Translations under genes and position numbers: made by a program
Source: a virus
Virus record (IMG/VR): IMGVR_UViG_3300035534_000060
Strand: one strand, 5' to 3'
DNA: 61,473 bases
The notes under the pieces: model-generated
Databases searched by the model: none
Told to the model about the DNA's origin: nothing
Seen by the model: the letters and a program-made list of their open reading frames with translations, nothing else
Part shown: piece after piece, positions 36,248-38,173 of the stretch
Layout: every line of letters starts with the position of its first letter
How positions within the stretch are numbered: position 1 is the stretch's first letter

Positions 36248-37780
36248 ATGGGTAACAACATAGCCAACCATGACTTTGAAGCAGGTATGCTGGTGTATTG
36301 GAACCCATATACGAGCGGTGGTTCGGACGATGTGGATGTATCGATAACAGACTATTACAGTTCTGACGGTAATTATGGCGTGAGTTGTAGAGTGGACGGT
36401 GGCGGGGACATATACGCCGGTATTAAACAACCCGTCCAATTAGTGTCGGGCATCCCAGCCTTCGTAGCAATCGATTATAAGGTAACTGATATTGGTTTGG
36501 GTGCTGGTGGTTCTGGTATATATGGTTGCAGAGTCGAAATAGTCGTAGGTGGGGTTGTCCAAGAAGCACAGGAAATTACATCCACAACAGGTTGGAAATC
36601 AATAGCAACACTTGTAGATTTAACAGGTGATTATGAGGTAGAGTTCAGAGTTTATGGTTGGGCTTACGATGATCTAATGTATGCTACCGTTATATTCGAT
36701 CAAGCACGCACAATAGTTGATAGTTCAAACTCATACACGATATCATCACTGTCAGACCTCGAAGATATGGCTAACGACCTCTACGGGACATACACACTAA
36801 CTCAGGATGTTGACGCATCGGGTACACAGGCGTCCGATTATAATAGTGATAAGGGCTGGTTGCCAATCGGTTCTATGGATTTCCCATTCATGGGTACACT
36901 GGATGGTAATGGCTACAAAATTACGGGTTTGGAATGCCACAGAGATACAGAGGATTTCTGCGGACTGTTTGGTGCCACTGCCGAAAACAGCGTAATTAAA
37001 AATCTGACTTTTGAGTCACCGTCGATAAAGGGTAACAGTTACGTTAGTTGCGTGGTAGGACACTGTTACGCTACGGATTTTGATTATGTGTATGTAGATG
37101 GTGGTAGTTTACAGGGTACAGAAAACGTTGGCGGTTTATGTGGTGGATACTACAACGGTGATATAGACGAATGTGAGTTGAGTATATCGGTATCTGAACT
37201 CGACACATCAGCAGGATCATGTTTCGGTGGACTCATTGGGCTATCGTTGGGTGGTACATTTGACCAAGTGATATTCGATGGTACAGAAGTAAACGCACCA
37301 AACAAGAATACGGTAGGTGGACTCATAGGTTGGTCTGATACAGTCGGTGAGGTACTGTTCTCAACCATTAACAAGGGGTACATAAAAACCGACGTCACCG
37401 GAAACAATCAGGTTGGCGGACTAATCGGATACGGAACAATCACTCACCTGTACGAATGTATGTTTGAGGGTAATGTAACAGGCTACGATTCAGTCGGTGG
37501 TCTCTACGGTTTCATTCACTATGGTGACATTGACAATTGTGCTGCACTGAACGGAAATGTCACGGGATCAAACGGTAGTACAGGCGGAGAAGGTGCCGGT
37601 GGTATAATCGGTCAGGGGCGGTTGGGTGGCTTCAACAAAGTCTATTCTAACATGGAAGTAAACGGTGATTTGGAATACCACGCACTCTTAGGCATATTGC
37701 TGGATGGGGACGAGCAAACCGATGTGTATGTGGATACTGACTATTGTAGTGCACCGTTACGTTCAGCAGCAAGCGGGTAG
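36248..37780 (+). CDS. GLUG-motif tail fibre protein, ending at an in-frame TAG
   Basis: Repeated VGGLIG/GGLCG/GGLYG units; C-terminal YVDTDYCSAPLRSAASG then TAG. Confidence 0.55.
   Translation: MGNNIANHDFEAGMLVYWNPYTSGGSDDVDVSITDYYSSDGNYGVSCRVDGGGDIYAGIKQPVQLVSGIPAFVAIDYKVTDIGLGAGGSGIYGCRVEIVVGGVVQEAQEITSTTGWKSIATLVDLTGDYEVEFRVYGWAYDDLMYATVIFDQARTIVDSSNSYTISSLSDLEDMANDLYGTYTLTQDVDASGTQASDYNSDKGWLPIGSMDFPFMGTLDGNGYKITGLECHRDTEDFCGLFGATAENSVIKNLTFESPSIKGNSYVSCVVGHCYATDFDYVYVDGGSLQGTENVGGLCGGYYNGDIDECELSISVSELDTSAGSCFGGLIGLSLGGTFDQVIFDGTEVNAPNKNTVGGLIGWSDTVGEVLFSTINKGYIKTDVTGNNQVGGLIGYGTITHLYECMFEGNVTGYDSVGGLYGFIHYGDIDNCAALNGNVTGSNGSTGGEGAGGIIGQGRLGGFNKVYSNMEVNGDLEYHALLGILLDGDEQTDVYVDTDYCSAPLRSAASG
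37778..37780 (+). other. In-frame amber codon inside a conserved module (candidate sense or readthrough codon)
   Basis: Same frame continues into 37781-38173; aligns with Lys of TGKGEPRTTAE in 28355..31219. Confidence 0.45.
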
Positions 37781-38173
37781 GGCAGGACATCCACCGAAAT
37801 TGCTGATCCTGATAATTATACCAGTGACGGTTGGGATTTGGACGATTTGTGGGGCATGTTCGAGGACGTTGCGGGGTATGTGTCTCCATATCTCAGGTGG
37901 TTGCTGGATTACCTGTATGACGATTTCTATGTAGCACAGTCCGGAGATGATACAAACTCAGGTACCAGTTGGGATAAACCGTGGGGTTCGGTCGAGAAGG
38001 CAACGACCGATCTGAAAGACGGTAAACGACTGCACATCGAATATGGTACCTACAATGAAGCACTGACATCGTTAGATTTCCAGAACGTTGGTCGTGGTGG
38101 TATCGAGATCATAATATCGGATACGAGTGACACTCCGATTTCCGGTAACGAAGTGATAATCAATTTCAGTTAA
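37781..38173 (+). CDS. Same-frame continuation of the fibre gene (beta-helix-like start)
   Basis: RTSTEIADPDNYTSDGWDLDDLWGMFEDVAGYVSPYL parallels RTTAEMQTQETFADWDFDTVWTMDGYPAL; first canonical start is a TTG at 37838 inside the motif. Confidence 0.4.
   Translation, partial: GRTSTEIADPDNYTSDGWDLDDLWGMFEDVAGYVSPYLRWLLDYLYDDFYVAQSGDDTNSGTSWDKPWGSVEKATTDLKDGKRLHIEYGTYNEALTSLDFQNVGRGGIEIIISDTSDTPISGNEVIINFS

What the first reader, a model, noticed from the sequence alone, without database searches (positions are those of the whole stretch)
36248..38173. In-frame TAG inside a conserved tail-fibre module: candidate amber-as-sense codon (possibly pyrrolysine) or programmed readthrough
ORF 36248..37780 ends with TAG at 37778-37780, and the same frame stays open to 38173. 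The residues spanning the TAG (YVDTDYCSAPLRSAASG-TAG-GRTSTEIADPDNYTSDGWDLDDLWGMFEDVAGYVSPYL) parallel a module of the paralogous protein 28355..31219 (YYDTETSGQSDTGKGEPRTTAEMQTQETFADWDFDTVWTMDGYPAL). In that comparison the TAG falls at or next to a Lys. The only canonical start of the downstream ORF (TTG at 37838) lies inside this motif, so the downstream part looks like a continuation rather than a separate gene. A Lys-aligned UAG in a virus with archaeal promoters and replication genes fits pyrrolysine decoding, which in archaea is restricted to lineages such as Methanosarcinales and Methanomassiliicoccales. Alternatives are a short and long fibre isoform by readthrough, or a recent AAG-to-TAG nonsense mutation.
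Basis: partly seen in the sequence, partly recalled or inferred. Interest (0 to 1): 0.85.

Follow-up and report, generated by a model that had tools for sequence, protein, structure and literature searches.

The report
Conserved amber codon inside archaeal-virus tail fibre
A tail-fibre gene of a virus that most likely infects pyrrolysine-using methanogens carries an in-frame TAG kept at the same spot in every known relative, so it is almost certainly read as an amino acid (probably pyrrolysine) and not as a stop; no virus doing this turned up in the literature I could search.

Summary
ORF 36248..37780 ends in TAG (37778-37780) and the frame stays open for 130 more codons to TAA at 38171-38173.

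- **Not an error or a recent mutation.** The same TAG is present in 9 further independent assemblies of this strain. It also sits at the identical aligned position in four other lineages (two deeper clades) whose proteins are only 33-42% identical and whose synonymous sites are saturated.
- **Both sides are one protein.** Both sides are under purifying selection (dN/dS 0.05-0.13). The residues straddling the TAG are a motif that is contiguous in 21 cellular GLUG-domain proteins.
- **TAG is avoided as a terminator.** It ends 1-2 of about 74 genes, against about 20% expected. There is no tRNA and no genome-wide recoding.
- **Host.** The virus carries an insertion element 87% nt-identical to Methanohalophilus copies. 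That genus has tRNA-Pyl and is proposed to read every TAG as pyrrolysine.
- **A second case.** An alternative, non-homologous fibre cassette at the same locus in sister viruses also has an in-frame TAG, inside a CBM96 domain.

Best reading: one 641-aa fibre protein decoded through UAG by host Pyl-tRNA, possibly alongside a 510-aa terminated form. No proteomic proof exists.

The parts
36248..37777 (+). Fibre ORF, codons 1-510. An N-terminal ~160-aa domain is followed by a GLUG-repeat beta-helix module (from ~residue 165).
   Evidence: Pfam GLUG PF07581 and weak Peptidase_M26_N. 721 homologs, with P0001 at 99% identity. The AF2 model of the paralogous module is a beta-helix like the IgA1-protease N-domain 3n6z.
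37778..37780 (+). In-frame TAG (codon 511). Inferred to be decoded as pyrrolysine.
   Evidence: Invariant TAG at the same aligned site in window/L004/L097-104, L001, L005, L006 and L002/3/11, while the flanking codons vary synonymously.
37781..37909 (+). Continuation: the C-terminal cap of the GLUG module (GRTSTEI...WDLDDLW...SPYLRWL). No canonical start codon occurs before 37838.
   Evidence: The motif G[KR]TT.EM...W[DN]F..IW...YP.L is contiguous with the GLUG repeats in 21 homologs and in the paralog. All six third-codon positions after the TAG vary, but only 3 of 12 first/second positions do. The paralog's RTTAEM segment is modelled at pLDDT ~88 as part of the domain.
37910..38173 (+). C-terminal ~85-aa module (DDFYVAQSGDDTNSGTSW...GTYNE...VIINFS) plus the TAA stop. 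It resembles the N-terminal start of pectate-lyase-type beta-helices.
   Evidence: Conserved in all lineages (A3). Weak Pel9A-like_beta_helix annotation. The same module occurs stand-alone or internally in other fibre genes (L007-9; L106). The AF2 model of the extension alone was uninformative (pLDDT 46).
35753..36244 (+). Small upstream protein (163 aa) that always precedes the fibre gene. Its N-terminal ~68 aa are shared with sister strains and its C-terminal part is cassette-specific. Probable adaptor (inference).
   Evidence: PTL_trimer weak hit. Synteny in L001, L002 and L006. N-terminus nearly identical to the L106 108-aa protein, then divergent.
35958..38201 (.). Exchangeable fibre cassette, which is also a 45-50% GC island in a 35.8% GC genome.
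   Evidence: Composition profiles. In L106 the flanks are 95-98.6% identical but this segment is replaced by an unrelated 2.05-kb cassette; L105 differs over 32605..38201. Short metagenome contigs break at its edges.
3706..5034 (+). IS200/IS605-type element with TnpB (3813..4925). This is the host link.
   Evidence: Pfam OrfB_IS605 / Cas12f1-like TNB. Best genome hits are 84-88% aa to Methanohalophilus, 75-79% to Methanolobus and ~68-72% to Methanococcoides/Methanosarcina. At the nt level it is 87% identical to Methanohalophilus sp. RSK including the non-coding ends.
11597..11773 (-). The only other plausible gene in the window that ends in TAG (58 aa). The next in-frame stop lies 27 codons further on.
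   Evidence: The + strand ORF 11820..12341, which also ends in TAG, scores as non-coding.

Best explanation
36248..38173 is one gene for a 641-aa (about 68.5 kDa) tail-fibre or receptor-binding protein of a tailed archaeal virus whose host is a pyrrolysine-decoding Methanosarcinaceae methanogen (Methanohalophilus-like).

The UAG at codon 511 is decoded by the host's Pyl-tRNA(CUA). Translation therefore continues through the last ~40 residues of the GLUG beta-helix module and an ~85-residue C-terminal module.

If the host reads every UAG as Pyl (the proposed Genetic Code 34), only the long form is made. If UAG is ambiguous, as in M. acetivorans, a 510-aa (53.7 kDa) terminated form is made as well.

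**Shown:**
- the TAG and the open frame;
- its conservation;
- the coding constraint on both sides;
- TAG avoidance at gene ends;
- absence of a viral suppressor tRNA;
- the Methanohalophilus-like IS element;
- a second in-frame TAG in an alternative fibre cassette.

**Inferred:**
- the identity of the host;
- that the inserted residue is Pyl;
- the ratio of the two products;
- why the TAG is retained.
For: 1. **Conservation.** TAG is invariant at the identical aligned position in 5 sequence-distinct lineages forming 3 clades that are 33-42% aa identical. Synonymous sites are saturated between clades (pS ~0.75) and dS is 0.7-2.3 within clade B. No TAA, TGA or sense variant was found among 5.8 billion protein clusters: no ~640-aa relative and no other GLUG hit ending at this site.
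2. **Translation across the site.**
   - dN/dS is 0.05-0.13 on both sides.
   - The six codons after the TAG change at every third position but at only 3 of 12 first/second positions.
   - The motif is contiguous in 21 homologs and in the window's own paralog.
   - The window lineage has no start codon for 20 codons after the TAG.
3. **Not an artefact.** Nine other assemblies keep the TAG.
4. **Genome adapted to a UAG-reading host.**
   - TAG ends 2 of 72 (or 1-2 of ~74) genes, against 20.5% of off-frame stop triplets (P = 1e-5). Published medians are 22% for Pyl-negative archaea and ~5% for Pyl-positive Methanosarcinaceae (PMC12626013).
   - In related loci nearly every TAG-terminated ORF is one of the in-frame sites.
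5. **Host.**
   - The TnpB IS element is 87% nt / 88% aa identical to Methanohalophilus copies.
   - Methanohalophilus genomes carry tRNA-Pyl (PMC6491703).
   - The genus is among those inferred to read all TAG as Pyl (bioRxiv 10.1101/2024.09.30.615893).
   - The virus is archaeal: terminase nearest to Methanofastidiosa and haloarchaeal tailed viruses; PolB, an RFC-like ATPase and an AEP primase.
6. **Second case.** In L106 and L166 a non-homologous fibre at the same locus reads 82 aa-TAG-424/607 aa. The TAG aligns to a Tyr inside a CBM96/DNRLRE domain and the first ATG after it is 178 codons away. That gene is dead unless UAG is suppressed.
7. **No viral suppressor.** No tRNA and no Rfam hit in a contig whose ends overlap, so it is likely complete.
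Against: - There is no protein-level evidence of any kind.
- The host is inferred from one mobile element plus codon-usage mimicry. No CRISPR-spacer or provirus link was obtained, and the class II RNR was uninformative.
- Four of the five lineages have an ATG 7 codons after the TAG, so gene callers annotate a separate 127-136-aa gene there.
- No PYLIS-like or other conserved RNA structure follows the TAG. This element is known not to be required (PMC12626013).
- The TAG-equivalent column is variable (T/E/V/F/A/H) in homologs. A chemical need for Pyl is therefore not obvious, and the reason for strict retention is unexplained.
- Only 5 lineages are available, all from short metagenomic contigs.
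Confidence: 0.7

Rival explanations
1. Split gene. TAG is a genuine terminator and the downstream 125-136 residues are made as a separate polypeptide. Initiation or termination-reinitiation would occur at the ATG 18 nt downstream (other lineages), or at TTG 37838 or ATG 37856 (this lineage).
For: Four of five lineages have ATG at codon +7, and gene callers predict a separate gene. The C-terminal module also exists as part of stand-alone genes (L007-9 and L010).
Against: - The putative start is not conserved: it is ATT in the window lineage.
- The six codons between the TAG and that ATG show a protein-coding substitution pattern.
- The conserved W-D-x-D-D-x-W motif lies upstream of, or across, every start available in the window lineage.
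- A plain stop should have drifted to TAA in an AT-rich genome that ends 65% of its genes in TAA.
- The segment is part of one domain in all cellular homologs.
Confidence: 0.12
2. Pyl-independent programmed readthrough. UAG is occasionally misread by a near-cognate tRNA (Gln/Tyr/Lys/Trp) because of its local context, giving a minor long isoform as with Q-beta A1 or MuLV Gag-Pol, in a host that need not decode Pyl.
For: Conserved in-frame stop with a conserved extension. An invariant G follows the TAG and the spacer is purine-rich.
Against: - No conserved downstream structure (consensus -1.76 kcal/mol; z = 0.32).
- The +4 G is explained by the Gly codon.
- It does not explain genome-wide TAG avoidance.
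- It does not explain the second TAG at codon 83 of the alternative fibre, where low-level readthrough would leave almost no functional protein.
- The host link points to a Pyl-decoding genus.
Confidence: 0.13
3. Decaying gene or artefact: a nonsense mutation, pseudogene or assembly error in a recently acquired cassette.
For: The cassette is compositionally foreign (45-50% GC) and the site is a single base change away from several sense codons.
Against: About 10 independent assemblies share the TAG. It is conserved across clades with saturated synonymous divergence, and purifying selection acts on both sides.
Confidence: 0.02

Closest known systems
Internal-TAG ('Category 1') genes of Pyl-decoding archaea / proposed Genetic Code 34 (Kivenson et al., bioRxiv 10.1101/2024.09.30.615893); non-methyltransferase Pyl proteins such as M. 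acetivorans RdmS (PMC12626013)
   Same: An in-frame TAG with homology on both sides to contiguous proteins, an extension of more than 15 aa, no required cis element, TAG depleted as a terminator, and a Methanosarcinaceae context.
   Different: The gene is encoded by a virus rather than the cell and is a virion structural (fibre) gene. The TAG is conserved across deep divergence, whereas most cellular non-methyltransferase Pyl sites are singletons attributed to drift. The decoding machinery is wholly supplied by the host.
Methylamine methyltransferases MtmB/MtbB/MttB
   Same: A conserved in-frame UAG retained over long evolutionary distances in Pyl-decoding methanogens.
   Different: No methyltransferase domain is present. 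The site is a variable column in a loop just before the C-terminal cap of a beta-helix, not an active site. No PYLIS-like structure is present.
Programmed stop-codon readthrough of viral structural genes (Q-beta A1 read-through coat protein; MuLV Gag-Pol). Recalled from general knowledge, not tested here.
   Same: A virus structural protein with an in-frame stop and a conserved C-terminal extension, with the potential for a fixed short:long ratio.
   Different: Those systems use near-cognate tRNAs, with a UGA or a UAG-plus-pseudoknot context. Here no stimulatory element is detectable, and a dedicated host UAG-decoding tRNA is the likely agent.
Stop-codon-recoded bacteriophages (TAG or TGA reassigned; suppressor tRNAs; e.g. 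crAss-like and Lak phages). General knowledge.
   Same: A virus whose correct expression depends on reading a standard stop codon as sense.
   Different: Here there is only one in-frame TAG per genome, no viral suppressor tRNA or release-factor gene, and the code matches the host rather than conflicting with it.
GLUG-motif beta-helix proteins / IgA1-protease N-terminal domain (PF07581, PF05342; PDB 3n6z, 6xjb)
   Same: Same repeat family and predicted fold. The same C-terminal 'TETSG...G[KR]TTAEM...WDF..IW...YP.L' cap motif.
   Different: In all other members examined the motif is uninterrupted. Only this viral clade (P0001, P0002, P0003) has a TAG in it.

Membership tests
Pyl-encoding internal-TAG gene (Category 1 sensu Kivenson et al.) in a Pyl-decoding system | In-frame TAG with sequence on both sides homologous to contiguous known proteins; extension longer than 15 aa | tested here: met
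   GLUG homologs at 25-35% identity cover the upstream part. The downstream motif is contiguous in 21 homologs and in the paralog. The extension is 130 aa.
Pyl-encoding internal-TAG gene (Category 1 sensu Kivenson et al.) in a Pyl-decoding system | The translating organism has pylT/pylS (tRNA-Pyl, PylRS) and Pyl biosynthesis | tested here: inconclusive
   The host is only inferred: the IS element is 87% nt-identical to Methanohalophilus. Methanohalophilus has tRNA-Pyl according to PMC6491703. No direct host link such as CRISPR spacers could be tested.
Pyl-encoding internal-TAG gene (Category 1 sensu Kivenson et al.) in a Pyl-decoding system | TAG depleted as a terminator in the genome | tested here: met
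   2 of 72 (or 1-2 of ~74) genes against 20.5% expected from off-frame triplets, P = 1e-5. Relatives show the same pattern.
Pyl-encoding internal-TAG gene (Category 1 sensu Kivenson et al.) in a Pyl-decoding system | Pyl residue demonstrated in the protein | not testable with these tools
   Needs MS of the peptide SAASG-Pyl-GR.
Pyl-encoding internal-TAG gene (Category 1 sensu Kivenson et al.) in a Pyl-decoding system | PYLIS-type 3' stem-loop (present in mtmB; not obligatory) | tested here: not met
   No conserved structure and no Rfam hit. PMC12626013 states that no motif is essential, so this does not exclude membership.
Programmed near-cognate stop-codon readthrough (Q-beta A1 / MuLV type) | Stimulatory context or downstream RNA structure | tested here: not met
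   RNAalifold consensus -1.76 kcal/mol; MFE z-score 0.32. The conserved +4 G is accounted for by the Gly codon.
Programmed near-cognate stop-codon readthrough (Q-beta A1 / MuLV type) | Two products (short major, long minor) from one ORF | not testable with these tools
   Predicted masses are 53.7 and 68.5 kDa. Needs a western blot or MS.
Genome-wide stop-codon-reassigned phage (TAG as sense, with suppressor tRNA) | Many in-frame TAGs across genes | tested here: not met
   Only one credible TAG-split gene in 61.5 kb.
Genome-wide stop-codon-reassigned phage (TAG as sense, with suppressor tRNA) | Virus-encoded suppressor tRNA | tested here: not met
   ARAGORN found 0 tRNAs. Rfam found 0 hits.
GLUG-motif beta-helix domain family (PF07581 / Peptidase_M26_N-like) | GLUG repeats above the Pfam threshold, and a beta-helix fold | tested here: met
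   PF07581 scores 27.5 bits against a cutoff of 20.5. The paralog-module model has pLDDT 88 and matches 3n6z at E = 2.7e-9.
Methylamine methyltransferase Pyl proteins | MtmB/MtbB/MttB catalytic domain with Pyl in the active site | tested here: not met
   No such Pfam domain. The TAG column is variable in homologs.

The most novel reading that the evidence does not exclude
The TAG is retained by selection because Pyl-dependent decoding does something a normal sense codon cannot. There are two candidate reasons.

- **Dosing.** Partial readthrough would set the short:long fibre ratio and couple virion composition to the host's methylamine-induced pyl expression. The virus would then 'read' host physiology through the genetic code.
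- **Chemistry.** The Pyl side chain itself could have a structural or chemical role in the fibre.

Either way this would be the first virus shown to depend on the 22nd amino acid. Its expression would be locked to Pyl-decoding hosts, making the genetic code a host-range barrier.
Probability: 0.25. Interest if true: 0.9.

Novelty: new variant of a known kind. Interest (0 to 1): 0.72.

Why it matters
- **A new setting for pyrrolysine.** Pyl decoding of UAG is known only for cellular genes. I found no paper in the searchable library describing a virus that uses it.
- **Adaptation to the host's code.** A virus whose receptor-binding fibre needs UAG suppression is adapted to the host's expanded code, and it also avoids TAG terminators. 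It should be unable to express that fibre in Pyl-negative hosts.
- **An unusually conserved site.** The TAG is conserved across saturated divergence, which is rare for non-methyltransferase Pyl sites. It is therefore a natural test case for a live dispute: is UAG in Methanosarcinaceae ambiguous (PMC12626013) or fully reassigned (Genetic Code 34 preprint)?
- **A practical consequence.** Standard gene callers split such genes (510 aa + 105-136 aa here). Fibre and receptor-binding genes of methanogen viruses are therefore being mis-annotated.

Tried and rejected
**Searches that found nothing useful**
- IMG/VR scans with the extension alone or as a 3-sequence profile found nothing.
- The metagenome-contig scan returned only unrelated beta-helix N-cap matches (L092-96), so no further lineages were gained.
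- tblastn of the primase against GenBank phages found no match.
- The major-capsid-region search gave only weak haloarchaeal hits.
- phmmer of the fused protein against PDB sequences gave no hit.
- Searching papers for the sample accessions found nothing.

- Structure prediction refuses a fused sequence or one containing a stop, so the junction was modelled on the paralogous module instead.
- The AF2 model of the 130-aa extension was too poor to use (pLDDT 46).

**Ideas tested and dropped**
- The class II RNR search was not informative about the host (best named hits Fusobacterium, 46%).
- A second readthrough at ORF 11820..12341 was considered and rejected. That ORF scores as non-coding, and the minus strand carries the real genes there.
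- Other TAG-split frames in the window (minus strand at 2227, 9846 and 60979) were not tested further. They lie on the strand opposite the predominantly plus-strand ORFs there, and at 60979 an ATG-start ORF begins 10 codons after the TAG.
- Rejected outright: genome-wide recoding, a viral suppressor tRNA, and a PYLIS element.

**A literature error to note**
The review PMC8211752 says Methanohalophilus lacks the Pyl system. This conflicts with PMC6491703 and the Code 34 preprint. I judge it a slip for Methanosphaera.
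Full report
**1. The observation**

The sequence is as described. An ATG at 36248 opens a frame that meets TAG at 37778-37780 and then stays open for 130 more codons to TAA at 38171-38173. 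After the TAG, the first canonical in-frame starts are TTG 37838, TTG 37847 and ATG 37856. All three lie inside the conserved W-D-x-D-D-x-W motif.

The paralog 28355..31219 aligns across the TAG by BLASTP. In that alignment the TAG pairs with Glu219, not Lys.

I also examined 21 contiguous GLUG-family homologs recovered. The column before the conserved G-[KR]-T-T is T (9), E (7), V (2), F, A and H. The conserved K/R is two residues downstream.

**2. What the gene is and where it sits**

- **The virus.** The window is a 61.5-kb tailed archaeal virus at 35.8% GC.
  - Its terminase is nearest to those of Methanofastidiosa and haloarchaeal tailed viruses.
  - It encodes PolB, an RFC-like ATPase, a class II RNR, an AEP primase, an XPD-like helicase and RecU.
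  - The contig ends overlap, so the genome is probably complete.
  - It has no tRNA and no Rfam hit.
- **Gene neighbourhood.** The gene follows the tape-measure gene (31222..34092), a Prophage_tail protein (34092..35732) and a 163-aa small protein (35753..36244).
- **The protein.**
  - It has GLUG repeats (PF07581) and a weak Peptidase_M26_N match.
  - An AlphaFold model of the paralogous module (pLDDT 88) is a beta-helix resembling the IgA1-protease N-domain (3n6z, E = 2.7e-9).
  - In that model the segment equivalent to the residues just after the TAG (RTTAEM) is confidently placed as part of the domain's C-terminal cap.
  - The TAG therefore lies about 40 residues before the end of a module, not at a gene boundary.
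  - An ~85-aa C-terminal module follows (FYV..GDD.NSGTSW..GTY), resembling the start of pectate-lyase-type beta-helices.
- **The cassette.**
  - Segment 35958..38201 is a 45-50% GC island.
  - It is an exchangeable cassette. In IMG/VR relative L106 the flanks are 95-98.6% identical but this segment is replaced by unrelated DNA.
  - In L105 a larger block (32605..38201) differs.

**3. The TAG is conserved**

A search with the fused protein found only three proteins that end just before the G[KR]TT motif: P0001 (this strain), P0002 (42% identity) and P0003 (33%). Every other GLUG hit that reaches this region carries the motif uninterrupted.

A profile of the extension and the encoding contigs added further examples. 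These fall into five sequence-distinct lineages:

- window / L004 / L097-104
- L001
- L005
- L006
- L002 / L003 / L011

In all five, the codon before G-R-T-[TS] is TAG. The frame then continues for 130-138 conserved codons to a TAA in every contig that reaches the end.

- **The flanking codons vary synonymously.** Gly is GGC or GGA, Arg is AGG or AGA, and Thr is ACA, ACC or ACT. All six third positions after the TAG vary, but only 3 of 12 first/second positions do.
- **Divergence is deep.** Between the three clades synonymous sites are saturated (pS ~0.75). Within clade B, dS is 0.7-2.3 and dN/dS is 0.05-0.13, both upstream and downstream of the TAG.
- **It is not a sequencing error.** Nine further independent assemblies of the window strain (98.8-99.8% nt identity) keep the TAG.

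These results exclude a sequencing error, a recent nonsense mutation and a pseudogene.

A plain terminator would be expected to drift to TAA. That is one transition away, and 65% of this genome's genes end in TAA. A neutral sense codon would likewise be expected to be replaced. My rough estimate that TAG is kept by chance in all lineages is 1e-2 to 1e-3 or lower (inference).

**4. Evidence that UAG is read in the host**

- **TAG is avoided as a terminator.**
  - It ends 2 of 72 curated genes, one of which is the site itself, against 20.5% of off-frame stop triplets (binomial P = 1.3e-5).
  - After re-examining the 11.5-12.7 kb region, the only other TAG-ending gene is a 58-aa ORF.
  - PMC12626013 reports median TAG usage of ~5% in Pyl-positive Methanosarcinaceae, 22% in Pyl-negative archaea and 13.5% in Pyl-negative Methanosarcina.
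  - In related viral loci nearly every TAG-terminated ORF is one of the in-frame sites.
- **The host is probably Methanohalophilus-like.**
  - The window carries an IS200/IS605 element (3706..5034; TnpB 3813..4925).
  - Its best matches among 185,579 species genomes are Methanohalophilus: 84-88% aa, and 87% nt including the non-coding ends.
  - Next come Methanolobus (75-79% aa), then Methanococcoides and Methanosarcina.
  - Methanohalophilus genomes (~42% GC) carry tRNA-Pyl (PMC6491703).
  - The genus is one of eight reported to have many internal-TAG genes and inferred to read every TAG as Pyl ('Genetic Code 34'). That proposal was validated by proteomics in Methanococcoides burtonii and Methanomethylophilus alvi.
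- **A second in-frame TAG exists in a different fibre gene.**
  - The alternative cassette in L106 (primase 98% identical to the window's) and in the more distant virus L166 encodes a non-homologous fibre reading 82 aa-TAG-424/607 aa. The first ATG after that TAG is 178 codons away.
  - The TAG aligns with a Tyr inside the CBM96/DNRLRE domain of a TAG-free variant, L164/L165 (Pfam 4e-16, NCBIfam 2.7e-22, BLASTP 3e-18).
  - That gene is non-functional unless UAG is suppressed efficiently.
  - The first 540 nt are identical between L106 and L166. This is therefore one event spread by recombination, not independent conservation.
- **There is no cis signal.** No conserved RNA structure follows the TAG (consensus -1.76 kcal/mol; z = 0.32) and there is no PYLIS or other Rfam hit. 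This agrees with the literature that Pyl insertion needs no cis element.

**5. Mechanism**

The best-supported reading (confidence about 0.7) is that 36248..38173 is a single gene. The host's Pyl-tRNA(CUA) decodes codon 511, giving a 641-aa, 68.5-kDa fibre protein.

- In a host where UAG is fully reassigned, this is the only product.
- In a host where UAG is ambiguous, a 510-aa, 53.7-kDa form lacking the module's C-cap and the C-terminal module would also appear. This ambiguity was shown for RdmS in M. acetivorans.

Why the TAG is kept so strictly is not explained. The equivalent column tolerates many residues in homologs. Either the Pyl residue matters, or partial termination is useful for setting stoichiometry or coupling to pyl expression, which rises at least 4-fold on trimethylamine.

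Rivals:

- **Split gene with independent or re-initiated downstream translation (0.12).** It is supported by an ATG at +7 codons in four lineages. It is contradicted by loss of that ATG here and by the coding pattern of the intervening codons.
- **Pyl-independent near-cognate readthrough (0.13).** There is no stimulatory element, and it does not explain TAG avoidance or the codon-83 TAG.
- **Decay or artefact (0.02).**

**6. Comparison with what is known, and novelty**

Functionally this is a 'Category 1' internal-TAG gene as defined for Pyl-decoding archaea. It differs in three ways:

- it is in a virus;
- it is in a virion structural gene;
- it is conserved across deep divergence, whereas most non-methyltransferase Pyl sites are singletons.

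It is not a methylamine methyltransferase. It is not a genome-wide recoded phage, because it has one TAG and no suppressor tRNA. It shows none of the cis elements of classical viral readthrough.

Six literature searches found no report of Pyl or Code 34 use by a virus. The library does not cover all journals.

I rate it a new variant of a known kind, with interest 0.72. It suggests a genetic-code host-range lock and gives a natural reporter for the 'ambiguous versus reassigned UAG' question. It also shows that standard gene calling splits fibre genes of methanogen viruses.

**7. Limits**

There are no protein data. The host is inferred from one mobile element plus codon usage. Only five lineages are available, mostly on 2-12-kb contigs. 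The fused protein could not be modelled, and the extension alone modelled poorly.

Noticed in passing
L106 12801..14324 (minus strand; same as L163 5331..6854) and L166 5752..~7820: A non-homologous alternative fibre cassette at the same genomic position in sister viruses has its own in-frame TAG at codon 83. It lies inside a CBM96/DNRLRE domain and aligns to Tyr of a TAG-free variant (L164/L165). The first ATG after it is 178 codons downstream. The first 540 nt are identical between two otherwise diverged viruses.
   Followed up: yes
window 35958..38201: The fibre gene and the 3' two-thirds of the preceding small gene form a 45-50% GC cassette in a 35.8% GC genome. The cassette is swapped wholesale between strains whose flanks are 95-99% identical. 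Many ~2-kb metagenome contigs end at its edges. DNA just after the TAA (38174-~38200) is shared with otherwise different neighbours (L004, L010, L011), marking a recombination junction.
   Followed up: partly
window 3706..5034: An IS200/IS605-type element (TnpB only) sits inside the viral genome. It is 87% nt-identical to copies in Methanohalophilus sp. RSK and M. profundi. It served as the host link. Whether it is active, or guides an omega-RNA, was not examined.
   Followed up: partly
window 1..425 and 61243..61473: Positions 1-126 are identical to 300-425, and the last 231 nt match 127-357 at 97.8%. The overlapping, repeated ends are consistent with a complete circular or terminally redundant genome, or with a ~299-nt direct repeat.
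   Followed up: partly
window 47996..58307: A block of nucleotide-metabolism and possible DNA-modification genes: dCTP deaminase-like (47996..48490), thymidylate-synthase-like (49834..50610, weak, possibly a dNMP hydroxymethylase), an RFC-like AAA+ ATPase, a Dam-type N6-adenine methyltransferase (52868..53635), PolB and a class II RNR with a TSCPD domain. The nearest named RNR relatives are Fusobacterium (46%).
   Followed up: no
window 11500..12700: The long + strand ORF 11820..12341 (ending in TAG) looks spurious: it has a negative coding score and a low-complexity translation. A chain of overlapping minus-strand ORFs (11597..11773, 11778..12035, 12032..12292, 12286..12651) is the likely real operon. 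11597..11773 is the only other TAG-terminated gene, with the next in-frame stop 27 codons later.
   Followed up: partly
window 38236..39045 versus L004 7944..8386: The genes immediately downstream of the fibre differ completely between this strain and L004, even though their fibre genes are 99% identical. In the window these are a 154-aa protein with weak ricin/agglutinin-type lectin hits and a 113-aa protein. This suggests a second variable receptor-binding slot.
   Followed up: no
window 15815..17518: A 567-aa protein with a strong Laminin_G_3 / concanavalin-A-like lectin domain is encoded just upstream of the terminase. This is an unusual position for a lectin-domain protein.
   Followed up: no
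L012-L060 (TnpB-flank loci): A crude ORF count gives TAG as the terminal codon in 3 of 45 Methanohalophilus ORFs, 12 of 53 Methanolobus, 4 of 31 Methanococcoides and 17 of 57 bacterial ORFs. The samples are small, but the virus (1-2 of ~74) is closest to Methanohalophilus.
   Followed up: partly
literature (PMC8211752, section on pyrrolysine): The review states that Methanohalophilus lacks Pyl methyltransferases and the Pyl system, citing Fricke et al. 2006. This conflicts with PMC6491703 and the Code 34 preprint, and is probably a slip for Methanosphaera.
   Followed up: yes
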